DNA from: Candidatus Heimdallarchaeum aukensis
Lineage (GTDB): Archaea; Asgardarchaeota; Heimdallarchaeia; Heimdallarchaeales; Heimdallarchaeaceae
DNA length: 64,000 bases
Direction: 5' to 3'
Assembly (NCBI GenBank): GCA_021513695.1
Contig: CP084166.1
Span: 1,984,001 to 2,048,000 of the forward strand
Part shown: positions 4,545-52,200 of the stretch, piece after piece
Layout: the number at the start of each line of letters is the position of its first letter
How positions within the stretch are numbered: position 1 is the first letter of the stretch
Translations under genes and position numbers: made by a program
The notes under the pieces: generated by a model
Told to the model about the DNA's origin: nothing
Database searches by the model: none
What the model saw: the letters and a program-made list of their open reading frames with translations, nothing else

Positions 4545-6536
4545 ATGAGTGATTACGCAGCTACTATAGTTAACCACATGAAAAATAAAGAATTAATACG
4601 AAACATATGTATCGTAAGTCATGTAGATCATGGTAAAACTACTCTTTCTGATTATCTTCTTCAAGCTGGAGGATTAATATCCCAATCTCTCGCTGGTTCT
4701 GCACGCGTTTTAGACTATCTTGAAGAAGAACAACAACGTGGGATTACTATAAAAACAGCTAATATTTCTTTCATTTATAAGCACAAAGAAACAGATTATT
4801 TAATCAATCTTGTTGATACACCTGGTCATGTCGATTTTTCAGGATTAGTTGCTCAAGCAATAAGACTAGTTGATGGAGTAATTATTGTTGTTGATGCTGT
4901 AGAAGGGGTAATGGCACAAACACATTCCGTAATTAAACAATCAATAGAAGAGGGATTGAAGCCAATTCTCTTTATAAATAAAGTTGATAGATTGATAAAT
5001 GAACTTAAGCTTGACGAAAAAACTATTGAAAGTAAATTAAATACGATCATACAGTTTGTTAATGAATTGATTTTACAATATTCTTACAACAATAATATTC
5101 AAAGAAAAGTTAGTTTTTCTGATGGGACTGTTATAATAGGTTCTGCACTATATGGTTGGGCTCTGTCAAAGTACTCTGAACAAATACCAAAGTTTTCTAC
5201 AATCATTAGTTTGCATAAAGAAAATAATGTGAAAAAATTAAAAAAAGAAAATTCACTAATTAGTGCTTTAATGCCTGCAATAGTAAATTCTATTCCTTCT
5301 CCCCTTATTGCGCAAAAAGCTCGAATTACGAACATTATTGAATCTATATCAAATCAAGATAGGACCTCAATTGAAAAGTGTGACAATAATGGAAATACAA
5401 TCATTTGTATAGGTAAATTACTCTATGATAAAAATAGAGGAATAATAGCAATTGGAAGATTATTTTCTGGCGTTTTGAGAAAAGGTTCGATTCTAATAAA
5501 TACTAGAAACAAGAAAGAAGTTCGAATACACCAAGTTTGTTTGTATAAAGGTCCTTCACTTATTACTGTGAAGGAAGTTGAAGCAGGAAATATAGCTACA
5601 CTTATCGGAATGAAAGAAATACAAGTTGGCGATGTGTTGGTTGAAGATTTAAATATCGAGCAAATGATTGAGTTTAAACAAATATCTTATTTACAAGAAC
5701 CAGTAATTACAATACGAATTGAACCAAAGAATATTAGTGATATTCCGAAATTGCAAGAAGAGCTTGAAATTCTTTCTTTAATCAAGCCCAACTTTTCATA
5801 TATTATAGACGAAAATACAGGAGAAATTAAAGTTTATGGGATTGGTGAACTACAATTAGAAATAATTCTTAAAGATATTATGAAGACAGGTTTGCAAATA
5901 GAACTTTCAAATCCAGAAGTAGCATTAGTAGAACAAATAGATAAGGAAATTGAACATAAGTCAATTGATTCGTTAGGTAAAGTAGAATTAAGTATAAAGT
6001 GTTCTCCTACAACTAAAGCAAAAATATCTGGCGATACTGTTGTATTTAAAGACAAAAAAAATAATTTTTTGGTTGTTGAAGATACATCAATAAAAAACGA
6101 ACATATTGATCTATTAATTATTGGTTTTAAAAATGCTATAAAATTAGGGGTTAAATCTTCTAATCCTATTAGAAATTTGACTGTTATAATCAAAAAAATA
6201 GATATGCTTGAACAAGATGCTTTTCGATATGAAATTATTGTTCCTGCAGTTAAGAAAATAATCCATGAGGCCATATCCAATTCTATTTTTATTTATGAAC
6301 CAATTTACACAATCACTATAACGACTCCACTTGACTATCTTGGTGCTGTGCTCTCTGTTTTTCAGAAATATGGTGGAGAAGTGGAGAAAACAGAGCAAAT
6401 CTCTTCGAAAATGATTATTTATGGGGTTATAACTGTGCGATCCTCTCTTTCATTGGCAAATGAATTAAGGAAAGCTTCTGAAGGCTTTGCATTTTGGCAA
6501 CTTGATGTGTCTGGTTATAGAAAAATAAAAGAATAG
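4545..6536 (+). CDS. EF-2/EF-G family translational GTPase paralogue
   Basis: G-domain motifs AHVDHGKTT, DTPGH and NKVDR are present. At about 664 aa it is shorter than bona fide aEF-2. I could not find the diphthamide-loop HRG motif. A TTG lies 3 nt upstream of the ATG used here. Confidence 0.75.
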   Translation: MSDYAATIVNHMKNKELIRNICIVSHVDHGKTTLSDYLLQAGGLISQSLAGSARVLDYLEEEQQRGITIKTANISFIYKHKETDYLINLVDTPGHVDFSGLVAQAIRLVDGVIIVVDAVEGVMAQTHSVIKQSIEEGLKPILFINKVDRLINELKLDEKTIESKLNTIIQFVNELILQYSYNNNIQRKVSFSDGTVIIGSALYGWALSKYSEQIPKFSTIISLHKENNVKKLKKENSLISALMPAIVNSIPSPLIAQKARITNIIESISNQDRTSIEKCDNNGNTIICIGKLLYDKNRGIIAIGRLFSGVLRKGSILINTRNKKEVRIHQVCLYKGPSLITVKEVEAGNIATLIGMKEIQVGDVLVEDLNIEQMIEFKQISYLQEPVITIRIEPKNISDIPKLQEELEILSLIKPNFSYIIDENTGEIKVYGIGELQLEIILKDIMKTGLQIELSNPEVALVEQIDKEIEHKSIDSLGKVELSIKCSPTTKAKISGDTVVFKDKKNNFLVVEDTSIKNEHIDLLIIGFKNAIKLGVKSSNPIRNLTVIIKKIDMLEQDAFRYEIIVPAVKKIIHEAISNSIFIYEPIYTITITTPLDYLGAVLSVFQKYGGEVEKTEQISSKMIIYGVITVRSSLSLANELRKASEGFAFWQLDVSGYRKIKE

Positions 6537-6622
6537 TGGCTCAGCACTCAAGATCCTCATCACTAATCAGTCAAGGGCTAGACACATCATAGCCACATTA
6601 AATAGTTTATGAGAGTATTTTT

Positions 6623-7945: not shown

Positions 7946-8173
7946 TGTTAGTAATTTATAATGTATGAATATAATTTTTGTTTACATTTGTTAGCTTGAA
8001 TGTTTTCATACATTTTTTAAAAAAATGTTGAAATTTAACGTTTAACACGTCTTTACACGGTAACACTATTGTAATTGTGTTGACTTTAAGCAAACATTAA
8101 TAATTAACAACTAGGTAACAATTAATAATTAGTAAGGTCTATTATAATTTAGAGTATTTATGGGTTGAGTATA

Positions 8174-18778: not shown

Positions 18779-18866
18779 GGGAAGAAAGTCAAGAAAAAAC
18801 ACTAAAAAATCATGAAAAACATGATGATTATCAACTCCAAGAACTGGTAAGTTAAGTAAAAAACCA

Positions 18867-18889
18867 GTCAGCTGACAAGAACTCTCCAA
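18867..18889 (+). other. 5-prime half of pre-23S rRNA processing stem
   Basis: gtcagctgacaagaactctccaa is the perfect reverse complement of 22366..22388. Both halves have an adjacent CCAAATAGG box. Confidence 0.8.
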
Positions 18890-18920
18890 ATAGGCGAAAA
18901 CTGATATCTAAAGTAATCGA

Positions 18921-21900
18921 ACTATGCCTACGCCATGCTGTGGATGACTTGGCTGGGGAACCGATGAAGGTCGTGGTAAGCCGCGAAAGGCCTCGGGGAG
19001 ACGCAAACAGTCTACGATCCGAGGGTCACCGAATGGGGATCCCGACACAGCCTAATAAGTTGTGTCAACCAGTAATGGTGGGGAACGTGGGGAACCGAAA
19101 CATCCAAGTACCCACAGGAAAAGAAAACAATTGTGATTCCGTGAGTAACGGCGAGTGAAAGCGGAACAGGTCAAACCGAATTCCCTTTTCGAAAGATTAG
19201 GGTAGATGTGGTGTTTGTGACTGCAATATGGACCGTCAGCGTGAAGTCGAAGACAATGTGGAACATTGCGCCATAGAGGGTAAAAGCCCCGTAGACGTAA
19301 GCGCTCGGCCTAGCAGGATCAAGACTAGCGTGGCTTGGATTTGTCGCGCAAATATGGGAAAACTATGTCCCAAACCTAAATATTCCCCCAGACCGATAGC
19401 GCACTAGTAGCGTGAGCAAAAGTTGAAAAGTATCCAAAATATGGGAGTGAAAAGACCCTGAAACAGCATGGTAACAGACGTGGATGGCTCGAAAGCGTAG
19501 ATTCTCAGCGAAGGAACTCACCGTGAGGTGTTAGTACGAGCTGAGAGGAGCGGGGTCATCCGTTCCGTCTAGAAACACGGGCCGAGGAGTTCAGATTCGT
19601 GGCGAGCCTAAACGTATGTGGTGGCGTAGCGAAAGCGACCTGCACGCAGCACTTATGTGCCAGGTGCGACGTACGATAAGTGCGTGAAGTCACGGGTCTG
19701 AGACACGAAAGGAGTCGATCTACCCCTGGTTAAGGTGAAGCGCTTCGAAAGGAGCGTGGAGGCCTGAAGGGTTTCTAATATGCAATTTGTTCCTCTGAAC
19801 TGGGGGTAGTGGCAAAAGACCAATCTAGACTCCTGATAGCTTGTTCCCGCCGAAGTATAACCACAGTATAGCGTCACCGGAGGTTGCATGTGAGGTAGAG
19901 CTACGGACGGGTTGTCCCGGGGAGTGAAATCCTCGCCAATCCTTCCAACTCCGAACTTGCATGCGCCGTAGATGGTGGCAGACGGGCGTGTATCCGCAAG
20001 GGATATGGCCGCGAGGGGTTCAACCCAGAGGTTGGTTAAGGGCCCTAAATCCTGGTTAAATGTTAAACTGAATGACGTCCAACGGCTTAGACAATGAGGC
20101 GGTAAGCTTAGAAGCAGCTATCCGTTAAAAAAAGCGTAACAGCTTACTCATCGAGCTGTTGGGCTCAGAAAATGGACGGGGCTAAACCAGGTCCCGATAC
20201 CAATCCGAACTTCAAAAGAGTTTTGGGTAGGCGGGCGATCAGGTTGGGCTGAAGCTGGGGGGTGACTCCCAGTGGACCGGCTTGATTTGCAGATCTCGGC
20301 GGTAGTAGGAGCATAGTGAGGTGAGAATCCTCATCGCCGAAAGCCCAAGGGTTCCTTGGCACTGTTCGTCAGCCAAGGGTTAGTCGGTCCTAAGGGTGAT
20401 CTTAACACGAATCACTCGAAAGGGAAACAGGTTCATATTCCTGTACCGCGCATATAGGTGTGGTGACACAAGCTTTGAGCAGACACTGGTGGGTAGGTGG
20501 CCTAGGAGCGTATCCTAGTTAAATCCCGAATTCTGGGGAGAACCGTTATGGTGAGAACCAGAAGAATGGATGAATAGGCTGGCCATCGGTTGCTGGCTGC
20601 CATCAATCCCAACAGTCCATGAAAATGCGAGAAGAACGATTATGCGCGACCGTACCCAGAACCGTGACAGGTGTGGCTAGCTGAGAAGGCTAAGGCGTGT
20701 TAGGAGAAATCAGGTGAAGGAAATCGGCAAATTAGCCCCGTATCTTGGGTATAAGGGGTGCCTGGAAAGGTGTATGCCTTCCCAGGTCGCAGTGACAAGG
20801 GGCACCCGACTGTTTAATAAAAACATAGCAAACTGCAAGGGTGAAAACCTGTGTACAGTTTGTGAATCCTGGCCGGTGCTGGTGATTGAAACCTGGGTAC
20901 AACCAGGCTAAGACCCAGTAAACGCCGGAGCTAACTATGAGCTTCTTAAGGTAGGCAAATGCCTTGTCTGCTAATTACAGACGTCCATGAAGGGACCAAC
21001 GAGGTGCCCACTGTCTCCACCTGAATCCTACTGAACCCACAGTCCAGCGAACAGTCTGGAATGCACCATCGGGAAGAGAAGACCCTGTAGAGCTTTACTG
21101 CTGTCAGAGGCTGTTGTACTGGTGCTCATACATAGAATAGTCAGGAGGCGTCGATCCTACATTCTCCGGGATGTAGGGGAGCCGACAGTGAAATACTGAC
21201 TTTGAGCATTGGTACGACTCACCTCTTGCGAGGGGGACACCCTCTGCCTGGCAGTTTCACTGGGGCGGTAGCCTCTTGAAAAGATATCAAGAGGGCCCAA
21301 AGCCAAGCTCAACCGGGACAGAAATCCGGTGTAGAGTGCAAGGGCAAAAGCTTGGTTGACTGTGAACTGATAGAGAAGGTTCGCAGATGTTAACGCAGGG
21401 CCTAGCGATCCTTCGCATTGCCCATAGTAGGCGGCGGAGGTGGCGGAAAAGTTACCTCAGGGGTAACTACACTTTGATGTTACACTATCAAAGTGGCTAG
21501 ACAAAAAGGAACTTTTCCTGCATTGCACTTTATCTTTTCAAGGGCACGAAAAAATGAAACAAAAAAATAAAGCTAAGGTGGGTCAAATTTTACCCGAATG
21601 AATAATATACCGCAAAAAAAAGTTATCGAGTGAGGATTACTTACAAGTTTTCGCCTAATGGTCAAAAGGAAAACTTGAGCGGATTAGAACGGATCCAACA
21701 TCTGCCTTAACCATCAAGAAAAAAGACCCTTGGAAAAGATGAAGAGCCATTTTGAAAGTGTGAGGTCAAGAGGTTATTAGATCGGTAACTTGCCTTAAGC
21801 CGAGGCTGACAACTAATCTAATAACCGAAGTCGAAAAGACTGGTGTAGCCCTGAACAGAGTTGTCGTGGGTAAGAGTTCACATCGACCTCACGGCTTGCT

Positions 21901-22340
21901 ACCTCGATGTCGGCTCTTCCTAGCTTGGAGGTGATTCAGCTTCCAAGAGTGGGGTTGTTCGCCCATTAAAAGGGAACGTGAGCTGGGTTTAGACCGTTGT
22001 GAGACAGGTTGGATTCTATCTGATGGTGCTGGCGGGAGATTGAGAGTAAAACCTCCACAGTACGAGAGGAACAGGCGGTTGGGGCCTCTGGTGTATCGGT
22101 TGTCCTCCCGGGCATTGCCGAGTAGCTAAGCCCTTGAAGATAAGAGCGGAAAGCATCTATGCTCGAAGCTTCTCTCGAAACGAGTCTCCCATTCTGTACC
22201 TTTTGGGGGCTGGTGACAGCAACCTTTGGTATAGACGAGAGCACGGAAAGAAGATCCGGTTGATAGAGCAGGGGTGTGCGCGTCGAGCTTCGGCGAGATG
22301 TTTAGCCCACTGCTACTAATCGCTCAAGCGTAGTTCGACC
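18921..22340 (+). rRNA. rrl: 23S rRNA (stand-alone; ends approximate)
   Basis: Contains universal LSU blocks: GGATGACTTGGC near the 5-prime end, GGAAGAGAAGACCCTGTAGAGCTTTACT, GTTCACATCGAC...CCTCGATGTCGGCTC, and GTGAGCTGGGTTTAGACCGTTGTGAGACAGGT. GC content is far higher than the flanks. No 16S or 5S in the window. Confidence 0.9.
21468..21855 (+). other. intervening sequence (intron-like insertion, ~388 nt) inside 23S rRNA at the GGGAUAAC/AGGCUGAU (E. coli ~2449) site
   Basis: The conserved block is split: ...cctcaggggtaac | AT-rich ~388 nt | (c)agagttgtcgtgggtaagagttcacatcgac. The insert is AT-rich, unlike the rRNA, and has no ORF of 60 aa or more. Exon-1 tcaggg can pair with the insert's 3-prime end ccctga; the boundary is ambiguous by 1-3 nt. 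Confidence 0.6.
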
Positions 22341-22365: not shown

Positions 22366-22388
22366 TTGGAGAGTTCTTGTCAGCTGAC
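22366..22388 (+). other. 3-prime half of pre-23S rRNA processing stem
   Basis: ttggagagttcttgtcagctgac is the perfect complement of 18867..18889. A T-rich tract at 22389..22400 follows. Confidence 0.8.
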
Positions 22389-22591
22389 TTTTTTTTTGTC
22401 TTTTTTTCTTATTTTCCTTTTTCCTTGAACTTTTACTTCATTTGTATCTTTTTTTTGAAAATTTTCTTCTTTCTGTGCGAGATTTCTTTATTCTTTTTTC
22501 CTTTCTCTTCTCTTTTTTTGTAATACCTTGATATTTTGACAATGATATTTGTATTTCTATGTTATTTTTTATTAATACTCCTTGAGCAACT

Positions 22592-35497: not shown

Positions 35498-35605
35498 TGG
35501 TGCACGCGCCGGGATTTGAACCCGGGTTCCGTCAGTTCCACAACTACTTTCATACAGAAAGCAGCTTGGCAGTGACGAGTCCTAGCCAAACTAGACTACG
35601 CGAGC
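35498..35605 (-). tRNA. tRNA-Gly (GCC) with 31-nt intron at 37/38, CCA encoded
   Basis: Reverse complement folds as acceptor GCTCGCG/CGCGTGC (one U-U mismatch at 3:70), D stem GTCT/GGAC, anticodon stem CGTCA/TGACG, loop CU-GCC-A, a canonical T arm (CCGGG-TTCAAAT-CCCGG), and discriminator A. The intron region forms a bulge-helix-bulge: two 3-nt bulges separated by the 4-bp helix CUGC/GGUG. Confidence 0.7.
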
Positions 35606-41131: not shown

Positions 41132-42514
41132 CTATCTTCTATTTTTTAAAAAACGGAGGAGATTTTTAAGGGAGAAAAGAGAAACAAAGGATAAGGGAGT
41201 AATTACGATTATTAAATACATCATCTGATTCTTAACTAAGGGATTGGTATGATTGTAAAATTCTTCAAGATTAGTTAGACCGTCCCCGTCAAAATCAAGA
41301 TAAGAGTCATTAGTCAAAGGGTCAGAACCATAATGAACTTCCCAACCGTCAGGTAAAAGGTCTCCATCAGTGTCGCTAGACCAAGGATCAGTACCATAAA
41401 CATGATCTTCAAGATAATCCAGAAGGTTATCTCCATCGAAATCGCTCCCACGAGGAAAAGGGTCAAAAGCTTTAGCCGCGCCATCGATAGGGTAAGGTTC
41501 AGAGCCATCAGTATCTGACCAATAGTTGCCAATAGAATAGACGGGGTCAAACCAAGTGTTATTTATCCCATCATCAAAAGCTTGAGAAAGGTTCTTACCT
41601 TGATTGTTCTTGAAAAAAACATTACGAGAGATAAAGTTGTTAGAAGCAGATTTGTAAATATATAGTCCATACTCGCTGTTATTAAAAAAAACATTAGAAG
41701 AAAGGTGATTGTTAGAACCACTTACGGACAAACCACTTCTTCTGCTCTCGGAAATAACGTTATCGGTCACAGTGTTATTATCCCCACCTATTGCTAACCC
41801 ATCATAATTGGTATAAATAATGGTATTATTTGATATGAAGTTATTATGTCCTGAACTAAGAATTCCCCGTTCTCCACTATACAACAAGTAGTTATTAGTA
41901 ATAACGTTAAAACAAGTGTCGGTCATATCAATGCCACTTGCCCATCTAGTGTAAGAAATGTTATTACCGCTAACCAAGTTGTGAGAACCGTAGTGGATAT
42001 CTATTGCCTCCTCGGTGTGAGTGATAAAATTGTTAATAATGACATTATCAGAACTATGTAATGTTATCAATTCGCGTGAATAAGTTTTATTGGTCCCACC
42101 AATAAGAGTGGAGCCTTCAAGATGAAGATGGGCATTATCCCGTGCTCCAATATTCCAAGGACTGTCGGTGTAAGTTAGGATAGTAGTATCATAGATCGCT
42201 AAAGAAGAATTATCATAGGCATAAATACTTAGAGAACCTACTCGATCATGTTCAATAACAATAAAACAGTTACGAAGAATAAGAGAGCCTTCGTCCTTGA
42301 CATCAACTCTGTTGGTAAGTTTAATAAACTCGTTCTCAACTACAGTAGGTTCGGTAATGTTCCAAATACCATCAGGGGGAGGAAAAGAGCCAGAGCTAGA
42401 TGCTGAAGAAGTAACTATCGGACTAAAAGTAGGTGAAAATAACATAATAGAAGAAAAAATCATAAACACAAGTACAAACGAATTCTTTTTCCTTTTTTTT
42501 AGAATAAATATCAT
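41132..42514 (-). CDS. secreted right-handed beta-helix (pectin-lyase-fold) protein with Ca-binding D-x-D-G-D repeats and C-terminal TM anchor
   Basis: N-terminal signal peptide, then repeated N/S/G-rich ~22-aa units (NNTIIYTNYDGLAIGGDNNTVTDNVISESRRSGLSVSGSNN...). These are followed by DFDGDNLLD, DTDGDLLPDGWE and DFDGDGLTNLEE motifs and a final hydrophobic helix with an RK tail. Confidence 0.6.
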   Translation of the reverse strand: MIFILKKRKKNSFVLVFMIFSSIMLFSPTFSPIVTSSASSSGSFPPPDGIWNITEPTVVENEFIKLTNRVDVKDEGSLILRNCFIVIEHDRVGSLSIYAYDNSSLAIYDTTILTYTDSPWNIGARDNAHLHLEGSTLIGGTNKTYSRELITLHSSDNVIINNFITHTEEAIDIHYGSHNLVSGNNISYTRWASGIDMTDTCFNVITNNYLLYSGERGILSSGHNNFISNNTIIYTNYDGLAIGGDNNTVTDNVISESRRSGLSVSGSNNHLSSNVFFNNSEYGLYIYKSASNNFISRNVFFKNNQGKNLSQAFDDGINNTWFDPVYSIGNYWSDTDGSEPYPIDGAAKAFDPFPRGSDFDGDNLLDYLEDHVYGTDPWSSDTDGDLLPDGWEVHYGSDPLTNDSYLDFDGDGLTNLEEFYNHTNPLVKNQMMYLIIVITPLSFVSLFSLKNLLRFLKNRR

Positions 42515-43293: not shown

Positions 43294-46200
43294 ATGGAGA
43301 AAATAAAGATAAAGAAAAAATTAACAATTTATTCAATTTTAATAATATTAATATTCTCTAATTTAAGTGGATTGAATTTTAAATTTTTGCAAGCAGAAAA
43401 TGGAGATCAAAGTCCTCCATCTATACTCAGAGTAACACAGTTTCCTGAAGTTCCTACCCAATTCGATGGAGTGGTAGTCTATGTAGAAGTGGAAGACGAA
43501 ACAGGGTTCAGTTCTATATATTTGATGTACGAAAGGAATAATAACTTAACATCCATACCAATGAAGTATTTACCCAATTATTATGGGAATGGAACATGTT
43601 TTTACGCTTCTCTTCCTTCTTTTTCTGCAGGAACTAAAATAACTTATTTTATCGAAGTGACTGATTCGAGTGAGAATCAGAATATTGCACACTCACTAAA
43701 ATATGATTATGTGGTGGTGAGTGACGGAATACCAAAAATACAGTTATTAAACGAACCAAAATTTCTGTATTTAGGAGATGAATATAAATTCCAGTTTACA
43801 ATTTATGATGAGGATAATATTTCTCTTCAAGATACAGGGATTGATCCACCTTTATTATATTACAGAACAGAAAGAGTAGAAGGAACACAACAAGTAGTTT
43901 ATAATTCCACAACAGGGGTATTTGAAAGCGTTTTACCTTCTGTGAATCTACTAGATGGAGAAATGAGTGAAGGAGAAAATATAGAGGTGTGGGTAGGAGC
44001 TTATGATAAAAGTCCTGCACACCAGTATGGGGAGAGCAAACATTTGCAGTTACCTGTCATTAACGAGAAACCTTACATTTATGGCGTAGATAGGTATCCA
44101 TATATTCCTTTGTATAATGAAAGTTTCAATTTAACCACAACAATCTATTATAGAGAAAATATAGGTATGAATATCACGCAAGTATCAGCAACTATAAACC
44201 GATATGATGAGGTTACACAAAAAATTACAAAACAAAGTTATATTTTAACCCAAAGTGAATATTCAAAATTTGTATTTACAGGAATAATAGAATCGATTGG
44301 GTATATAGACAATATAGAATTGAAAATAAATTGTAAGTACACTTCAGATTACCAAATAGAAGAAGCAGAAGTAGAAAAACAAGAAAAAAGTTTTAGAGTA
44401 AGAGATTGCGAAGCGCCAACAATATTAGAAAGTGGATTTAGCAACGGGGTATCAACATTAAAAGAAGGAGAAGAAGTAAAAATCTATGCTAATGTACTTG
44501 ATCGTTTGAATACAAAAGATGTCACTGCAATAATTACTGAAGAGTATAAATCAGGATTGCAACTTATTCGTTCATCAAAGGAATATTTCCAGAAAATGGG
44601 TTATTATGGAGATGACGGGATAAGTTTTATTCAACAGATGAGTATTGATCAGAGTATAAGTGGAGATTTTTATTTTGATGGATTAGTTCTAAAAGAAGAA
44701 TATGTTAGTGCAGTGAGAAAAGAAGCAGCAAGTGAAACATTAGTTATTTACGCGGTAGAAGGAAAAAATGAATTATTTATCAAGATTATCAACCCAGAAG
44801 GGTTTGTTCCTTTAAGTTATAATCAGTTGGTTATACAAGCAAAAGCTATAGGACAAGATATTCTTTTAGCAGGAGTATACACTGATTTAGGAGAAACAGT
44901 TGTTTGGAATGAAACAGTAGGAGAGTATGTTTACGATAATGTACTGCCTATAGACAAGGTTTTTACTATAGATGAATACGGAACAGCTTGTTTATACAAT
45001 CTTCAAAATATGGACGATATTACAAATGCGATATGGATAAAATTCGTTCCTGCTGAAGGAGGAAATTTTAGTTCATCTGATGGTTTAAGTATTGATAATA
45101 TTAGATTGTTTAGTATAAATACTTTAAATGGCGAGAGAATAGACTCTTATCATCAAGAAATAAATCATGATTTTGTTGAATACTATGGCTATTATCAAGC
45201 TAAAAAGGTTGATCAATTAATAACTTTCTATATCCAAGCGAGCGACGGAATAAATATCCAAACCCAAAATAATGAGGAAACAATAATAGTAACTGATGGT
45301 AGACCTCCAACATTTGCCATCAAACAAATTTCTGGAGTGGATATAGGTGATATTGAAATCAACTTTAGCATGGCTATCACTGATTATTCTATAATAGATC
45401 CAACTGATGCAGTAAATGTTCGTTTTCATTACAAGATTAACGGATTAGAAGAAATAAGTGCGAACTTAACAGTTGAGAATAACTGGGACGATAAAGGAAA
45501 AGTGTGGGTGTATAGGCTTGACACTACAACAAATTTAAATTTCAACGATATGTGGAAATATTGGTTCAGTGCAGAAGATCCTTGTGGTAATCGTGGAGAA
45601 AGTAAACATTACTCTTTTGTTGTAGAAGAAAATAGTGCACCTACAATATCTTTAACTTGTCAGACCGTTACATATAATGGAGAAGAAAAAACAGTTGTTG
45701 ATCCTGCAGGGGCAGAAATAGGAATATCTGGAGAATATTTAGACATAAACATGGATATAACAGAGAATGAAGGAGGAAGTGGAATAAAACTTATCCAGCT
45801 ATATTGGTATACTTCTTCTCATGAATCAAATTGCTGGAGTTCGGAAGTATATAGTTTTATGTCTAGCTATTCTATCACTAATTTAACTGTAGCAGAAAAA
45901 ATGATACATAATTTCGATAAAGTAGGTATACTTTATTATTATGCACAAGTAATTGATCATGCAGGAAACATTTATCAAACACCAGAATATCAAGTACAGC
46001 TAATAGATAATGTAAATCCTATAATAAAAATCAACTCTGAATATAATAGTCCAAATGGGTTGTATAATGTCGACAATTCGTATGGTGATATAAGCTATAA
46101 TGAAGATGCATATATCACTTTAGAAATAGAAGATGCATCTACTATAACTAACCTAATTTTGGAGGCAGAAACATCTCAAGGTACCTTTGTAGGAGAAGTG

Positions 46201-49200
46201 GTATGGGACGAATATTATCATGATTGGACATTACAACATTATCAGATTAAAATAAATAAAGCGTGGGAAGTAGGAGAAAATATCAATCTAAAGATTACAG
46301 CGGTAGATTCTTTTGGAAATGCACTAAATAATATTTTTTTGGGTACAGAATACATTGTAGACAAACTTCCTCCTGTTTTACTCTCCTATTCGGATAATAA
46401 TTATGAACTGGGGGGAGGAGAAATAACTATTTCTTATCAAGTTAAGGATATAGGAAGTGTTGTAGCTTACCTTTATTATAATTTCAATTCTTCAGTGGAA
46501 ACACCCTCAACTGAAAATGCTACTCTTTCAGATTTTCAAGTAGCTGTAATGGATCTTGAATCAATAGATAATACGAAATATGCTCCTTATACTGAATGGT
46601 CATTTACCAAAACATTATCTCTGCCATCGGGAATATTATATCCTGCGGTATCAATATATTTTGTAGCATTAGATGAATATAATAACAGTTTAACATGTAT
46701 TGGAGGAAAAGCATATTCCCTACCTAATTTTGATATAGAAACAAGTATTTATACTCCTCGTATTGAATCATATAAAAAACTTGCTGATAAATTTGGAGAT
46801 TTTAGAGAATACCCCAGAGATAACGTAGATAAAAGATGGGTGGGAGAAACAGAAACAACTATAATTTCCTATGATTTTAGTGTAGAAGAAAATTTTTCTA
46901 TAAACTACGCTCATCCTTATGGAGATAGATTTGCAAAAAGTGTAGTAGATTTTTACACTCATTATTGTGAAAATAGTTTCTATGCTCTTGGAGCACCAGA
47001 TGGAAACATGGCAGAAGTTACTGGAAGTATACGTTTAGACATGGGGCATGAAGGAATAATAGTAAGTAAGCCTGGAGATGGAGCAGATTTCACAGTTTAT
47101 GGAGGGTCAGGACAATATCAAGTATTAGTATTTAACTCGTGGTTTCCTATGGAAGAATATCATTATCTAGGAACAGGAACGGGTATAACTTCTTGGGACT
47201 TAGAAGATGAAGGGTTAGATAAAGCACGATATGTAGAAATATGGAGTGAAACCGTAGAGGATGACATTCCAGTATATATTGATGCAATAGAAGCAATACA
47301 TTGTGATGGAGATAGTTTCACTGCTCAAGAATGGCAGAATGCAGAAGAAAATAATGGAATTCCAGCAAATATAGAAGATAAGCAACTTTCAATGTATTAC
47401 CATGGATATAATGAAAATAATGAAATATTAGAAATCACAGCCAATCCTGAATTTTATGACTACTTATATTTACCCCTATGGATGAATACTTATCTCCCTC
47501 AAATAAAACTGTCAATCAATTTTGTACAGCAACCTTATTCTGTTGATCTTTTTGCGGTAGATAATATGGCAAGAGATACTCTGATGCAAAATGGAAGTTA
47601 TGTGCATCTAGGAAAAATAGATGGCTCAGGAGTGTATTATTTTGCATGTTCATACCCTAATAGATACACAGGTGTGTTGTTTAAAATAAGACATAACTGG
47701 GCAAGAATAACGAGCGAACTTGTGCAAATGTACAATTATGAATTTACGCTTGATTATATTAAATTATTTGGCATTTTTTATAGAATAGAAGAATTATCAG
47801 GACCAAATTATTTGGAATTCGAAAAAATGTATGAAAAAAATAGCGGGAGAAATCCTGACCCTCTATTTTTGCAAATGGAAAATTATAATGGTGAAAATCA
47901 GAAAAGTGCAAGTATAGGTAATATCACAGAGGAAATATGGTATGATGCAATTAATGAATTGGAAGTTTTTTATGGTACAAAGGGAGAATGGTTTTATCTT
48001 GCAATTGATAGAGCAAGTGAGAAACCTAATAATTCCATTGTTACAGATGTTCAAATTGTTTATGTAGACGGAGAAAGATTATATTGGAAGAGTGCATACA
48101 ATAACCAAAAAAGAATAGCTTTAATTTTTGACACTTTAGAATTCTATGAAACTTATGGAGTGAGTAATTACTTTTACATTATGTCGAATGCAACGATTGA
48201 TGGAGATGGATTTACAGCTTATTATTATTCTTTTTATTCTAATAATGAATTGTTACAAGGGTTCAACTATGAAGGGATACCTCAGGCAGATTTCAGGACA
48301 GGTGATGCACTTAACCCCACTCTTGAAGATACAAGTTACGATTCTCCATGGTGGAATAACCCATTAGATTTTACCTCTCTCCATTCAGATAAACACGGGT
48401 GTATAGTCGTACAAATCCAAGAAAATCAATCTGGTAATCTTGATCATCTAAATTTTGAAGGATATTACTCCTTCTTGTTGGATGATCTCTATCTTGGTGG
48501 AGAAGAATTACATGAAAATAGAATCGGTTATCTCCCTATACATATAGAAGGATTTAGCTACTATAATGGAATAATGAACGGTTTTTATATTACTGACGAT
48601 ATTCACCCCAAACTAAGATTACAGACATCTATCGAGAATCTTTATTCTCATCCCTTAGAATTAAAGTATGTTCTTCCTGTCGCATTTATTGATTATGGAG
48701 AAGGGTGGTTACCCAGAGAAATAGAAAATTATGATAATAGCTACTTAGCTAATGAAAGATATAGATGGATTGAGGTAGAATTTCACAATAAGATTCAATA
48801 TGATATTACAGAACTAAATAATGATTCATGCACGCTTTGGCAGAAAGTGTTTGACTCTCAATCAAATGAGATTTATTTTGAAGAGAGCTATACTCATTAT
48901 AAGAGTAAAAATGTAGATAATGAATTTACTAAAAGTTTCTCCCACATAATCCCTGAATCAGAAGCTATTTTTCCAAGTTCTTATCAGTACTTTACTTATA
49001 GAGCAAGTTTAAACTATGTAGGAAGTATTTCTTCTTCCGATTACATACAAGTTGATTCACCAGAGTTTAGAATAGGAAATACAAAAAAAGAAGATTCAAA
49101 TATCAATGAACAATATGAAAGAGCGAAAGATGGAAACAGATTCTATTATTTCCTTCCATATGAGAGTGATACAAATTCTATTGCATTTGTGAATATCTCA

Positions 49201-52200
49201 TCTAAAACTATAAGATTTGACGATGAAGCTTGTACTCCAAGTAACATAATAGACAAGATAAACATAAAAGCTCGTTTATCTCTCGATATAGGGGAAAGTA
49301 TAGAAAAAGTTTCAATTTACAAAATATACGCAATAGATATTGAAAATAAAGAACATGTTCTATACTTATCAAATGATGATGAATACTATTTCGATTATAC
49401 AAGTGATCTAAATTATGAAATAGAATTAAATATTTCAGCAGATTCAGCGTATTTCTATATAATAAAAGAGTTTAAAGTAGAATTTAAAATAAAAACCTTT
49501 ACACAAAGTGCTCAAAATGTATTAGAAATATGTTTTGCAGAGTTGAAAGTTATCACTGATGAATTTTTACCATATGATGTCACCTATCCAAAGGATACAT
49601 CACCTCCTTCAATCAATCTAATTCCTGTCTCTCCTCTGAGTCTAGAAAATAGCACTTGGACGTTTTTATACTCTGCAGAAGATTATTCTGGATTGAAAAA
49701 TAATCAGTTCCAATATCGTATAAAATATGATTGGGGAGGAATAGATGATCAAGGTATAGTATATACTAAATCCGATAGTTATTCAGAATACATGGTTTTT
49801 GATCTTGGAGATATTTTTAATATTTATAGCCCTAGCCCTCAAATTGAGGGGGATGTTACCTATTACGCAAAGCGAATATGGATAGAAATTTATGCTGTGG
49901 ATGGTTCAATATGGGAAAATGAATATATCTATGAAAAAACATGGCAGATAGATGATGGTATCAATCCTTGGATAGAACAACAATTTAATTATCTTATTGT
50001 GCAAATGTACAATAATAGTCAGCTGATCTGGACAGAAGCGAAAGATATAGCAGGAGTAAATACAGTTGAACTCATAATAGTAAATATCGAAGATTTTCAT
50101 CATAATATTTATCAAATTAATGATATTTACACATTAAACAAAATTAACAATAGATGGTATTTAGGAGATGGTTTAACTCCATTTAGTTTTTACAAATATG
50201 GAGACGAGGAAATCATACCTTACAAAGTAAATTACTATTACACCATTCATGCAGAAGATGGAAAAGTATGGGATTCAGAAATATTTACTCTTCAATATAA
50301 GGATGGAATAGCTCCCAGCTACTATACTCACTCAATAGAAGCTTATACCGACGCAGAAGATGTGATAATTGAGATATGGACGTATGATGAGATATTTACT
50401 AGCGATGAACTAAATGTTTCAGCAGAATATTGTCAATCTATTTATGAGAATTTTGAATGGACAAATAATGGAACAATATATTATGAGAGTTTCAGTTTGC
50501 AAACTGATGGAGAAATAATTCACAATGGAGAAACGTACTATAGATATAAACTAGTTATTCCTCATGATAGAATTGAAGCAGGGTACGGAATAGTAGGAAA
50601 AATAATTGTTTCAGATCTAGCATCAATACCTAATGTTTTTACTATTCCCATAGAATTACAATTATATGACTCGAGAATAGTATTAGGAACGCCTTATCTT
50701 AATCCTACTCCGGATCAAAATGGCTATGTTCATTTTCTTTCTGATTTATCCCTATCAGTTACTATCATTGAATCGTATTATCCTACTCCTGTCGTATGGG
50801 CAGACGTGTATGTCAATAACGTTTACTCTACTACATTGAATCTGGGAACAGGAGATTATGTTACATACGTTTATGGTTCATTTGACTATAATACCTTAGG
50901 AGCAACATTACAAGATGAAGTAAGATTAGAGTTACATGCTTCAGCAACTATTAACACAGAAACAGTGAATGAAGAAGAAACAAGAATAATAGATTTCGTT
51001 TATTGGGACATTGTTCCTCCCGAGATTACCTATGTTTCTTCTATTCCTGCAAGAATGAACCCTGCAGAATTTACATTTAAGGTAAAAGAAGATATTAGGA
51101 CTATTATTCCTGGGTTAATTACAATCGAATATTCTCCCTATAATCAAAACAATTGGAATCCGTGTAGTGTGGATTATACTGAATCTTTGGGAAATGGAGA
51201 ATGGTTAGTTAATGCTTCGTTCGACAGTTCAAGCATGTCCGCAGGAGAAATATATGATTTTAATATAACAGTAACGGATTATTATAGTGTTACAAACTTA
51301 ATAGTCAGTCGAACTTTGACAGATATTACAGCTCCCACGGTTTTATTCAATTCTCCCTCCTCTCCAGGATACAGTCAAGATATTACAGTGGAAGCAGTTT
51401 TGGTCGATGATTCGGCAGTGGATACAGAAAACGTGTATATTAACTACAAGAACGAAAATGGAGAATGGGTATATACAACAAATTTCAGCAACGAACAAAA
51501 AATGATCTATGATGCTAATACTAACTCTTTCCACTTTACACTAGTATCAGAAAATCATCAAGCTCCTTACGCTATGCTGATAAAAATATGGTGTCAAGAT
51601 GAATATGCTAATTCACATTGGTCAGAATTCACAATATCTCTAGAAGATGACACTCCACCACTTATTATGAATGATGAAGTGTTAGTGAATATAGATAACA
51701 TCAATGAAATTACAGCGGTAGCAGATACTGAAATTGTCATAAGAGCAAGAGATGCTTGGTCAGAAATAAGAGAAACAGAAGTTCAAGTGTATAAAGAAGT
51801 AGGTACTGATAGCTGGGAACTAATAGCTGTTATTCTTCTTTCTCCAGACAGTAGTAGAGATGAAGGAATATTTAAGGGATATAGTGGAATATTAAATAGA
51901 GAAACACTTGAAACAAACAATGTTGTAACAGGAACTCGGTTGAAATTTATTCCTTGGTTTGTCGATGATAAAGGAAATGAAGTCGATACTTTGGAAGTTA
52001 CAAGGACGGTAATTGAAGGAAAGCCTGAAATAAAATCAGTAACTATGAATCCTTCCCCTAGTTCATATCTTCCTTATAATTCTACAGTAAATATAGAAGT
52101 TAACGCCACTTGCGTTTATGGTGTAGAGGACGTTAAATTAGATATATATATTGATGAAGTGTTGAAGATAGCTGATTATTCTTTCACTTTTGATTCTGGA

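What the first reader, a model, noticed from the sequence alone, without database searches (positions are those of the whole stretch)
21468..21855. ~390-nt AT-rich ORF-less intervening sequence in 23S rRNA at the omega / I-SceI-equivalent site (E. coli ~2449, next to the peptidyl-transferase centre)
The universally conserved block GGGAUAAC-AGGCUGAU...AAGAGUUCA is split by an insert. The sequence on either side can be re-joined to give GGGGTAACAGAGTTG...AAGAGTTCAC.
- The insert is far more AT-rich than the surrounding rRNA and encodes no protein, so there is no homing endonuclease.
- Its 3-prime end (ccctga) is complementary to the last exon-1 nucleotides (tcaggg), and a 4-bp ctac/gtag helix lies just inside. 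This is reminiscent of a relaxed bulge-helix-bulge substrate of the archaeal splicing endonuclease.
- A U at exon -1 and a G at the intron end are also available, so a degenerate group I intron is not excluded.

An insertion at this functionally critical position must be removed from mature rRNA, or it would be a spectacular expansion.
Basis: seen in the sequence. Interest (0 to 1): 0.6.

Follow-up and report, generated by a model that had tools for sequence, protein, structure and literature searches.

The report
Archaeal-type intron splitting 23S catalytic centre
The only 23S rRNA gene in this stretch of a Heimdall-group Asgard archaeon genome is interrupted, in the middle of the ribosome's catalytic centre, by a 389-base protein-less intron with the cut-site signature of the archaeal splicing enzyme; it is an apparently unreported example of a known kind of intron, unusual mainly for its conserved internal fold.

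Summary
The archaeal 23S rRNA gene (window 18916-22339) carries a 389-nt insert (21466-21854) between the E. coli-equivalent positions A2450 and A2451. Intron-less relatives (Wukong-, Hod-, Njordarchaeia) read straight through GGGGUAA|CAGAG. The window is Ca. Heimdallarchaeum aukensis.

The same insert, 288-424 nt long, is in every 23S I recovered from this clade. That is 8 full-length sequences, two of them found without selecting for the insert.

[quoted passage not shown] Cutting after the second bulge base gives exactly the intron-less sequence. The same unfitted rule works for two other 23S introns in relatives, one of which encodes a LAGLIDADG endonuclease.

A group I intron is not supported: no model hit, no conserved guide sequence, and the intron's two ends pair with each other.

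Most likely the host endonuclease (EndA) and ligase (RtcB) remove it. The motif lacks an adjacent outer helix, and splicing itself was not observed.

The interior has no ORF, is only 47-70% identical between lineages and still keeps its helices. That is the unusual part.

Verdict: new member of a known kind, moderate interest.

The parts
18916..22339 (+). Host gene: archaeal 23S (LSU) rRNA. No 16S or 5S rRNA gene lies in the window.
   Evidence: Rfam RF02540, 2489 bits, model positions 1-2987.
21466..21854 (+). The intron, 389 nt, by the BHB cleavage rule. The true boundaries are ambiguous within the repeated 'aac'.
   Evidence: The BHB scan gives the exon join GGGGUA|ACAGAG, which is the intron-less homologue sequence. 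GC is 0.38 and there is no ORF.
21460..21463 (+). Central BHB helix, 5' strand: exon-1 GGGG (E. coli 2445-2448). It pairs with CCCU at 21849-21852.
   Evidence: 4 of 4 pairs form in 8 of 8 sequences, but the pairs are invariant, so there is no covariation.
21464..21466 (+). 5' bulge UAA. The predicted cut is between 21465 and 21466, so exon 1 ends at the A2450 equivalent.
   Evidence: The rule of cutting after the second bulge nucleotide is established knowledge for archaeal EndA.
21467..21473 (+). Terminal intron-intron helix T1, 5' strand (CUACACU).
   Evidence: It pairs with 21842-21848. All 7 pairs form in 8 of 8 sequences. Three positions show compensatory changes and there are four haplotypes (CUACAC, CUGUGC, CUGCGC, CUGCAC).
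21474..21491 (+). First hairpin (hpA): UUGAU / loop / AUCAA. A hairpin occupies this position in every lineage.
   Evidence: Seen in the sequences. A lineage-specific stem follows T1 in all of them. No separate statistical test was made.
21528..21544 (+). Long-range helix Z, 5' strand (conserved block AUCUUUUC plus AAGGG).
   Evidence: It pairs with 21728-21744. 11 plus 3 pairs, 86-91% of cells paired, one compensatory position.
21645..21676 (+). Conserved hairpin C: AAGUUU-UC-GCC...GGU...AAACUU.
   Evidence: The blocks GUUUUCGCC and ACUUGAGC are near-invariant. The helix varies on one side only. MAFFT misplaced the window row; the true position comes.
21679..21705 (+). Hairpin D: GCGGA...UCUGC.
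   Evidence: 5 pairs, 90% of cells paired, changes on one side only (A-U to G-U).
21728..21744 (+). Long-range helix Z, 3' strand (CCCUUGGAAAAGAUGAAG).
21741..21765 (+). Conserved, apparently single-stranded blocks GA(A/G)AGCC and GUGAGG. They are candidate 3' strands of the tentative crossing pairings X and Y.
   Evidence: The blocks are near-invariant. Duplex tests against shuffled sequence gave a mixed result, and Y fails in L030.
21772..21826 (+). 3' domain E: an 11-bp stem GGUUAUUAGAU/AUCUAAUAACC, then GGU/ACU and GCC/GGC around an invariant internal loop (GGUAACU at 21784-21790 and UGACAAC at 21807-21813).
   Evidence: This is the best covariation in the element: 5-7 compensatory pairs in the outer stem and one in GCC/GGC.
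21829..21841 (+). Last hairpin F (AGUC GAAAA GACU). It abuts T1 with no linker.
   Evidence: 4 pairs, 100% paired, 2 compensatory positions.
21842..21848 (+). Terminal helix T1, 3' strand (GGUGUAG).
21849..21852 (+). Central BHB helix, 3' strand: intron CCCU.
21853..21855 (+). 3' bulge GAA. The predicted cut is between 21854 and 21855, so exon 2 starts at the A2451 equivalent. No exon-exon helix directly adjoins it, so the motif is relaxed (bulge-helix-loop-like).

Best explanation
This is an archaeal (bulge-helix-bulge, BHB) intron in the single-copy-type 23S rRNA gene of Ca. Heimdallarchaeum aukensis. It splits the peptidyl-transferase loop between the equivalents of E. coli A2450 and A2451.

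Proposed mechanism:
1. In the precursor, the intron's two ends pair with each other (7-bp helix T1).
2. The last four exon-1 bases (GGGG) pair with the intron's CCCU. This creates two 3-nt bulges (UAA and GAA) exactly 4 bp apart on opposite strands.
3. The host splicing endonuclease EndA cuts after the second base of each bulge. In Asgard archaea EndA is the (alpha-beta)2 type with the L1 loop, which tolerates relaxed motifs.
4. The RNA ligase RtcB joins the exons and circularises the 389-nt intron.
5. The GGGG is then free to form its native rRNA helix, and the catalytic centre can fold.

What is shown here: the insert, its site, its presence throughout the clade, the covarying terminal helix, the BHB geometry, and the fact that the rule predicts the right product.

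What is inferred: that cleavage and ligation actually happen, which enzymes do it, and that the intron becomes a circle.

The intron has no gene, so it cannot home by itself. It is probably inherited vertically. Its interior is held in a conserved multi-helix fold, at the least to bring the splice sites together without disturbing rRNA folding.
For: Site and contiguity in homologues.

BHB geometry: in all 8 full-length sequences, a mechanical scan for '4-bp helix, 3-nt bulge, helix' finds the candidate with the longest inner helix at the same place, and it yields GGGGUA|ACAGAG. The 1-nt-shifted alternative would leave two extra A's.

T1: 7 of 7 pairs form in 8 of 8 sequences, with 3 compensatory positions and 4 haplotypes.

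Whole structure: 92-94% of cells are paired, against 30-49% when the partners are slid. 11-14 pairs show compensatory change, against 1-5. No shuffle out of 500 reaches the observed covariation score.

Independent corroboration: two other 23S intron sites in relatives have the same layout, and the same rule restores the window's uninterrupted sequence. These are a 33-nt or 678-nt intron at window-23S position ~1906 and a 151-nt intron at ~3089. The 678-nt one encodes a LAGLIDADG protein, as classic archaeal rRNA introns do.

The host uses this machinery: a tRNA-Gly gene with an intron after position 37, and a 24-bp 23S processing stem.

Enzyme: Asgard archaea, including a Heimdallarchaeote, have the broad-specificity (alpha-beta)2 EndA with the L1 loop (PMC5829648).

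A 389-nt insertion between A2450 and A2451 cannot be accommodated in a working catalytic centre (established ribosome structure).
Against: No RNA data: splicing, the circular intron and the ligated junction were not observed.

The 4-bp helix and both bulges are invariant, so covariation cannot support them.

On a mini-substrate, the alternative register UCAGGG/CCCUGA is 3-4.6 kcal/mol more stable than the canonical one.

No exon-exon helix directly closes the 3' bulge, so this is a relaxed motif.

EndA and RtcB were not located in this genome. They are not in the window, and the enzyme type rests on the literature.

A plain BHB intron has no obvious need for such a conserved interior.
Confidence: 0.85

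Rival explanations
1. It is a degenerate or unusual group I self-splicing intron at the classic L2449 (omega, I-SceI) site. The 5' cut would follow U2449, and the terminal G would be the omega-G.
For: The 3-nt junction ambiguity allows GGGGU|AAC...CCCUG|AAC, that is, a U at -1 and a G at the intron end. L2449 is a well-known group I site in organelles and myxomycete nuclei. Group I introns do exist in archaeal 23S genes, and the Rfam model RF00028 misses them, so my negative Rfam results are a weak test (PMC6125680). The interior is a conserved, possibly pseudoknotted fold.
Against: No RF00028 hit at E<=10 on the window intron, or at E<=1 on six other variants.

There is no conserved internal guide sequence. 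The best complements to the exon-1 end lie at non-homologous positions, 50-110 nt into the intron, in different lineages.

The covarying helix T1 pairs intron bases 2-8 with bases -13 to -7. Group I architecture has no such helix.

Mapping the conserved helices onto P3-P9 leaves only 2-3 nt between domain E and hairpin F, which is no room for a P7 3' strand (my analysis).

No blastn similarity to any phage or plasmid sequence. None of the 39 catalogued archaeal group I introns is at LSU/2449.
Confidence: 0.04
2. It is an intervening sequence that is cut out but whose flanks are not re-ligated. The ribosome would then hold a 23S rRNA in two pieces (about 2.55 kb and 0.49 kb), as with bacterial RNase III-excised intervening sequences.
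For: The terminal helix alone would also suit a double-strand-specific nuclease. No RNA data exclude it. Unusual archaeal 23S topologies (circular, permuted) have been documented.
Against: The junction has the specific BHB geometry rather than a plain stem, and the rule reproduces the exact exon junction at three sites. In archaea, EndA products are normally joined by RtcB. A backbone break between A2450 and A2451, inside the catalytic centre, is unknown; natural rRNA breaks lie in variable regions (established knowledge).
Confidence: 0.05
3. It stays in the mature rRNA as an expansion segment, or this gene copy is a pseudogene.
For: Asgard archaea do have supersized expansion segments elsewhere in the 23S (PMC7594248). 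The insert is well folded.
Against: The insertion point is the buried core of the peptidyl-transferase centre. The rest of the gene is an intact, full-length, high-scoring 23S. The insert is present in every member of the clade recovered, including complete genomes. Those genomes are described as having a single 16S gene, so this is very likely the working 23S copy. The BHB signature would be unexplained.
Confidence: 0.02

Closest known systems
Archaeal BHB introns in rRNA genes of Crenarchaeota/TACK (for example the Desulfurococcus mobilis 23S intron with I-DmoI; Pyrobaculum, Aeropyrum and Thermoproteales 16S/23S introns)
   Same: They sit in a highly conserved rRNA site. The intron ends and the exon form a bulge-helix-bulge motif with 3-nt bulges 4 bp apart. 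Removal is by the tRNA splicing endonuclease. Both ORF-less and LAGLIDADG-encoding versions exist; relatives here have a LAGLIDADG-encoding intron and a 33-nt mini-intron at another site. The conserved 'core' lies at the junctions (PMC4496867).
   Different: The host is a mesophilic, AT-rich Heimdall-group Asgard archaeon rather than a thermophilic crenarchaeote. I found no report of rRNA introns in this group.

The site is A2450|A2451, inside the catalytic loop.

The outer exon-exon helix is missing.

The ORF-less interior keeps a common multi-helix fold at 47-70% identity. [quoted passage not shown]
Group I introns at LSU L2449 (yeast mitochondrial omega intron with I-SceI; Physarales nuclear L2449 introns)
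   Same: The insertion point is the same to within one nucleotide, in the same universally conserved GGGAUAAC|AG block. Another intron in relatives sits in the GUGAG|ACAG block. By my recollection of the numbering, that is the L2593 (I-CreI) region, where archaeal group I introns are catalogued.
   Different: No group I core, no guide sequence, no homing endonuclease gene, and the termini pair with each other. The shared site is best explained by homing endonucleases of both intron classes targeting the same conserved rRNA sequences. That is an inference, not something tested here.
BHB motifs of archaeal pre-tRNA introns and pre-rRNA processing stems
   Same: The core geometry and the presumed enzymes (EndA, RtcB) are the same. 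The window itself holds an intron-containing tRNA-Gly and a 24-bp 23S processing stem.
   Different: Here the motif is built from one exon strand plus the intron's 3' end within an rRNA domain, and it lacks the second flanking helix that the anticodon stem supplies in tRNA.
Bacterial 23S intervening sequences (helices 25 and 45) removed by RNase III
   Same: They are extra, AT-richer, stem-closed sequence inside a 23S gene that is absent from mature rRNA.
   Different: Those lie in variable surface helices and leave the rRNA fragmented. This one lies in the catalytic core and carries a BHB signature that predicts exact re-joining.

Membership tests
Archaeal BHB (splicing-endonuclease) intron | Two 3-nt bulges on opposite strands, separated by a 4-bp helix, each bulge lying 3' of its helix strand. 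| tested here: met
   GGGG-UAA on the 5' strand and CCCU-GAA on the 3' strand, in 8 of 8 sequences. Caveat: a competing 6-bp register is 3-4.6 kcal/mol more stable in isolation.
Archaeal BHB (splicing-endonuclease) intron | Cleavage after the second nucleotide of each bulge yields the functional, uninterrupted RNA. | tested here: met
   The predicted join GGGGUA|ACAGAG equals the intron-less Wukong/Hod sequence. The shifted candidate gives a wrong product. The rule also works at two other intron sites in relatives.
Archaeal BHB (splicing-endonuclease) intron | Flanking helices on both sides of the motif (strict hBHBh' form). | tested here: not met
   The inner helix T1 is present and covaries. 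No exon-exon helix adjoins the 3' bulge; the nearest possible one (UUACCY/GGGUAA) lies about 13 nt away and is invariant. This is therefore a relaxed, bulge-helix-loop-like form. Relaxed forms are accepted members of the family when the host has a broad-specificity EndA.
Archaeal BHB (splicing-endonuclease) intron | The host encodes EndA (of a type able to cut relaxed motifs) and the RtcB ligase. | not tested
   Neither gene is in the window. The literature reports (alpha-beta)2 EndA with the L1 loop for Asgard archaea, including Heimdallarchaeote AB_125 (PMC5829648). An intron-containing tRNA in the window implies the enzyme exists.
Archaeal BHB (splicing-endonuclease) intron | Excision, exon ligation and a circular intron are observed in RNA. 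| not testable with these tools
   No transcript data are available here.
Group I intron | A P1 helix: the end of exon 1 (with a U-G wobble at the splice site) paired to an internal guide sequence near the intron's 5' end. | tested here: not met
   The best complements lie at non-homologous positions in different lineages. In the window lineages (window, L015, L003) and in L020 and L025 the best complement leaves U(-1) unpaired; a full 7-bp pairing that includes it is seen only in L019, L022 and L024. Instead, the exon end pairs with the intron's 3' end in all sequences.
Group I intron | The conserved catalytic core (P3-P9 with the P3/P7 pseudoknot and the G-binding site in P7). | tested here: inconclusive
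   No RF00028 hit on any of 7 variants, but that model is known to miss archaeal group I introns. The helix order derived here does not map onto P3-P8-P7 (my analysis). The subtype models (GISSD) were not available.
Group I intron | A U at exon position -1 and a G as the last intron nucleotide. | tested here: met
   This is possible in one of the four equivalent junction registers. It is a weak feature, expected by chance fairly often.
Group II intron | A 5' GUGYG, a 3' AY and a domain V hairpin. | tested here: not met
   The intron begins (A)ACUACAC and ends CCCUG(A). No group II family hit at E<=10.
Homing-endonuclease-bearing mobile intron | An intron-encoded LAGLIDADG, HNH, GIY-YIG or similar ORF. 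| tested here: not met
   The longest ORF is 31 aa. The longest stop-free stretches differ in strand and frame between lineages. A different intron in relatives does encode a LAGLIDADG protein.

The most novel reading that the evidence does not exclude
The interior of this ORF-less intron may be more than filler. It would be a conserved, multi-helix and possibly pseudoknotted RNA of about 290-420 nt that Heimdallarchaeaceae have kept at the heart of their 23S gene. It could matter in its own right in one of two ways. It could be a stable circular RNA, or a folding checkpoint that delays formation of the catalytic centre until late in ribosome assembly. Alternatively, it could be the remodelled remnant of a group I ribozyme that switched to protein-dependent BHB splicing, at the very site (L2449) where group I introns sit in eukaryotic organelles and nuclei. 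The second case would be a concrete example of the long-proposed descent of BHB introns from group I introns.
Probability: 0.2. Interest if true: 0.7.

Novelty: new member of a known kind. Interest (0 to 1): 0.45.

Why it matters
In the literature I could search, rRNA introns of the archaeal type have been described mainly from thermophilic Crenarchaeota and their relatives. Finding a family of them in Heimdallarchaeia, the archaea usually placed closest to eukaryotes, extends their known range. There are three sites in one gene, one of them apparently fixed and sitting between A2450 and A2451 of the catalytic centre.

There are practical consequences. 23S-based annotation, phylogeny, primer or probe design and read-mapping for this clade will go wrong unless the introns are removed first.

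There is also a biological consequence. The ribosome's active site cannot form until the splicing endonuclease has acted, which ties ribosome assembly to the tRNA-splicing machinery.

The coincidence of sites with classic group I introns, together with the conserved fold of an ORF-less intron, gives a testable case for how intron classes share or exchange rRNA sites.

Tried and rejected
(1) Rfam at permissive thresholds on the window intron and on six relatives' loci. Nothing beyond noise such as snoRNA or miRNA hits at E of 0.4-8. This rules out known curated RNA families. It is only weak evidence against group I.

(2) Using the other inserts in relatives as a positive control for RF00028. 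They gave no hit either, so there was no control.

(3) FtsZ as a syntenic handle. It worked only for the closest relatives (98% identity). At 80-82% identity the 23S is no longer adjacent.

(4) My genome contigs pattern (GRAAAAGYTACC...) was too strict at its first base. It missed the CAGAAAAG lineages of this very clade. The single Heimdallarchaeaceae hit there therefore says nothing about how common the intron is.

(5) A search of the viral collection with the invariant 3'-domain motif. The four hits are all GC-rich coding DNA with no other similarity, so they are chance matches.

(6) blastn of the intron against the phage and plasmid collections. No match.

(7) Interior long-range pairings X (segment after hairpin A with GAGAGCC) and Y (segment upstream of AUCUUUUC with the bases before GAGG), which would cross as a pseudoknot. 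Y is strong in L019, L022 and L024 (p<=0.007). It is ambiguous in the window lineage, where three ACACU copies compete, and absent in L030. I keep both as tentative only.

(8) C/D-box or k-turn readings of GUGAGG and UGACAAC. The boxes do not fit the consensus in most lineages, so I dropped this.

(9) Coding potential. Stop-free stretches of 91-115 aa on the minus strand of L022 and L024 are not conserved in the close relative L019. They are expected on an A-poor strand, so I rejected them.

(10) Congruence of intron and exon divergence as a test of vertical inheritance. The exons are too similar (93-97%) to resolve it.
Full report
**What is there**

Rfam's archaeal large-subunit model matches window 18916-22339 on the plus strand, end to end, at 2489 bits. 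The gene is 3424 nt long against a 2987-position model. Almost all of the excess is one block between ...CCUCAGGGGUAA and CAGAGUUGUCG.... The model consensus at that point is GGGAUAACaGagucgu. The two flanks therefore re-join into the universally conserved peptidyl-transferase-loop sequence, with a G in place of A at E. coli position 2448.

The block has 0.38 GC. The rRNA has about 0.51 and the surrounding genome about 0.30. The block has no ORF longer than 31 aa. With its junctions it folds much better than shuffled sequence (z = -6.1). The junction is ambiguous over three bases, because 'aac' occurs on both sides.

**Whose genome**

The neighbouring genes point to an Asgard archaeon: FtsZ, an Arf/Ras-type GTPase, eukaryote-like ribosomal proteins and a 4223-aa ORF. 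FtsZ relatives are labelled Heimdallarchaeaceae. The window's 924-aa HerA-like protein is 100% identical to a protein of Candidatus Heimdallarchaeum aukensis on a 3,081,793-bp contig. That size matches the published complete genome (PMC8813620). That paper does not mention introns in the 23S gene. Five literature searches found no report of rRNA introns in this group (papers read).

**Homologues with and without the insert**

A scan of species-representative genomes for the unusual exon end (…GGGGTAA) returned two kinds of hit:
- Intron-less 23S genes of Wukongarchaeum, Hodarchaeota, Njordarchaeum and two Nitrososphaerales, which read GGGGTAA|CAG straight through.
- The complete chromosome of Ca. 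H. endolithica PR6, which carries the insert.

The flanks are contiguous in homologues, and G2448 is a native base.

A metagenome scan for the intron/exon-2 junction returned seven contigs with divergent inserts at the same site. Protein-handle look-ups added three more loci: L003 and L004 through FtsZ, and L030 through the HerA-like protein.

In total I have eight full-length sequences, 288-424 nt long. They come from hosts whose 23S is 85-98% identical to the window's. The intron-less lineages are only 66-71% identical.

PR6 and L030 were found without reference to the intron, and both have it. The partly assembled copies in L003 and L004, also found that way, have it too.

My genome-scan pattern was too strict at its first base and missed most of this clade. 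That scan therefore says nothing about how frequent the intron is.

Intron bases 2-8 pair with bases -13 to -7. The window has CUACACU/GGUGUAG. Other lineages have CUGUGC/GCACAG, CUGCGC/GCGCAG and CUGCAC/GUGCAG. That makes three covarying positions and four haplotypes, with every cell paired in all eight sequences.

Directly outside this helix, the layout is:
- 5' strand: GGGG (exon 1), then UAA.
- 3' strand: CCCU, then GAA.

So there is a 4-bp helix with a 3-nt bulge on the 3' side of each of its strands. This is the geometry recognised by the archaeal splicing endonuclease, as established for tRNA introns.

A mechanical scan finds this candidate, the one with the longest inner helix, in every sequence. 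Cutting after the second bulge base gives GGGGUA + ACAGAG, which is exactly the intron-less sequence. The only competing candidate, shifted by one base, would leave two extra A's.

By this rule the window's intron is 21466-21854, and the splice lies between the equivalents of A2450 and A2451. That numbering rests on my knowledge of the E. coli sequence around D2449 and A2451.

**Independent corroboration within the clade**

Relatives carry two further 23S inserts that the window lacks:
- At window-23S position ~1906: 678 nt in PR6, about 681 nt in L019, and only 33 nt in L003.
- At position ~3089, in the GUGAG|ACAG block: 151 nt in L019, L022 and L023.

Both show the same layout (inner helix, 3-nt bulge, 4-bp helix formed by exon 1 and the intron's 3' end, 3-nt bulge). 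In both, the same unfitted rule restores the window's uninterrupted sequence.

The 678-nt intron encodes a 187-aa protein that matches Pfam LAGLIDADG_3 at E = 2e-10. The 33-nt version at the same spot looks like its eroded remnant. This is the usual life history of archaeal rRNA introns (PMC4496867).

The window itself also contains an intron-bearing tRNA-Gly(GCC) and a 24-bp 23S processing stem. The host therefore depends on this processing machinery.

**Caveats on the motif**

- The 4-bp helix and the bulges never vary, so covariation is silent on them.
- No exon-exon helix directly closes the 3' bulge, so the motif is of the relaxed, bulge-helix-loop-like kind.

Such substrates need a broad-specificity endonuclease. 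Asgard archaea, with Heimdallarchaeote AB_125 among the genomes analysed, are reported to have the (alpha-beta)2 enzyme with the L1 loop, which confers that specificity (PMC5829648). I did not locate the enzyme genes in this genome.

**Group I alternative**

A U at -1 and a terminal G are formally available, and L2449 is a classic group I site. Archaeal group I introns exist, and the Rfam group I model is known to miss them (PMC6125680). My negative Rfam scans therefore count for little on their own.

The structural arguments are stronger:
- There is no conserved internal guide sequence.
- The exon end pairs with the intron's 3' end, and the intron's two termini pair with each other.
- The order of the conserved helices leaves no room for a P7 3' strand after the domain that would correspond to P8.
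- There is no sequence similarity to anything in the phage or plasmid collections.
- None of the 39 catalogued archaeal group I introns is at this site.

I put this reading at about 4%.

**The interior**

Between lineages the introns are 47-70% identical in aligned columns. The flanking exons are about 93-97% identical. Even so, a common fold is kept:
- a long-range helix (AUCUUUUC with GAAAAGAU),
- two conserved hairpins,
- a long 3' domain whose outer stem has 5-7 compensatory pairs,
- a last hairpin stacked on the terminal helix.

Overall, 92% of cells are paired, against 36-49% when the partners are slid. 14 pairs show compensatory change, against 2-5. No shuffle out of 500 reaches the observed covariation score (confirmed on eight sequences).

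Several blocks are invariant and appear unpaired: GAGAGCC, GUGAGG, GGUAACU and UGACAAC. Two possible crossing pairings remain tentative.

In Thermoproteales 16S introns, predicted structures were reported as not generally conserved within a locus beyond the BHB core. This degree of conservation in an ORF-less intron is therefore the least ordinary feature here. The minimal explanation is selection for a compact fold that presents the splice sites and does not interfere with rRNA folding. A function for the excised circle, or descent from a ribozyme, is not excluded.

**Verdict**

This is an archaeal BHB-type intron. It is ORF-less, probably vertically inherited and apparently fixed in Heimdallarchaeaceae, and it splits the catalytic loop of 23S rRNA. 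It is a new member of a known kind and of moderate interest. It has not been reported as far as I could find. RNA evidence for splicing is still missing.

Noticed in passing
L015 (Ca. H. endolithica PR6) minus strand ~4986-5660; L019 minus strand ~5380-6060; L003 ~8090-8125; the equivalent point in the window is ~20821: A second 23S intron site that the window lacks, in the block GACUGUUUAAUAA|AAACAUAGC. The intron is 678 nt in PR6 and about 681 nt in L019. PR6's copy has a 187-aa LAGLIDADG_3 ORF, and L019 has a 185-aa ORF on the same strand at 5410-5967. L003 has only a 33-nt mini-intron there. The BHB layout is the same, and the rule restores the window sequence.
   Followed up: partly
L019 4067-4216, L022 2514-2658, L023 2003-2146 (minus strands); the equivalent point in the window is ~22004: A third 23S intron site: a 151-nt ORF-less intron in GUUGUGAG|ACAGGUUGG. 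I recall this as the L2593 (I-CreI) region. It has an 11-12-bp inner helix, bulges AGA and AAA, and a 4-bp helix UGUG/CGCA. The window lacks it.
   Followed up: partly
window 21462-21468 and 21784-21790; 21807-21813: The heptamer GGUAACU that spans the 5' splice junction recurs, invariant in 6 of 8 lineages (AGUAACU in the other two), in the internal loop of the intron's 3' domain. It lies opposite a near-invariant UGACAAC (invariant in 7 of the 8 aligned sequences; L030, and also L003, have CGACAAC), which resembles the 3' junction CUGAACA. This could be mimicry, the trace of a duplication, or chance. It is unexplained.
   Followed up: no
window 35501-35605 (-): A tRNA-Gly(GCC) gene with an intron of about 31 nt after position 37. 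Rfam finds it, but ARAGORN misses it. Its BHB has an extra U between the inner helix and the 4-bp helix.
   Followed up: partly
window ~18866-18889 and ~22366-22389: A perfect 24-bp processing stem brackets the 23S (AGUCAGCUGACAAGAACUCUCCAA with its complement). A BHB-like arrangement (AAAA/UUUU with 3-nt bulges) lies just outside it. A/U runs make the register ambiguous.
   Followed up: partly
window 1-64000: The 23S gene stands alone. There is no 16S or 5S rRNA gene within 18 kb upstream or 41 kb downstream, so the rRNA genes are unlinked. The published Heimdallarchaeum paper also reports that 5S could not be predicted.
   Followed up: no
L003 ~8087/8088: This JGI contig's 23S lacks 313 nt that are present in the window (window-23S positions 1522-1834), and its Rfam score drops from 2489 to 2087 bits. 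The missing stretch is genuine rRNA, not an intron, so this is probably an assembly artefact.
   Followed up: partly
L011, L012, L013, L017, L018 (Asgard) and L014, L016 (Nitrososphaerales): A G at E. coli position 2448 (GGGGUAAC in place of the near-universal GGGAUAAC) occurs in intron-less 23S genes of several Heimdall-group lineages and of two Nitrososphaerales. It therefore predates the intron or is independent of it. It does happen to complete the 4-bp BHB helix.
   Followed up: partly
window 43294-55965 (+): A single 4223-aa ORF. A NosD/beta-helix protein is encoded just upstream, at 41132-42514 on the minus strand.
   Followed up: no
window 6538-6594 (-): A C/D-box sRNA candidate (Rfam snoPyro_CD, 46.7 bits, just above the gathering score of 45). 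It lies between the EF-2-like gene and an amidohydrolase gene.
   Followed up: no
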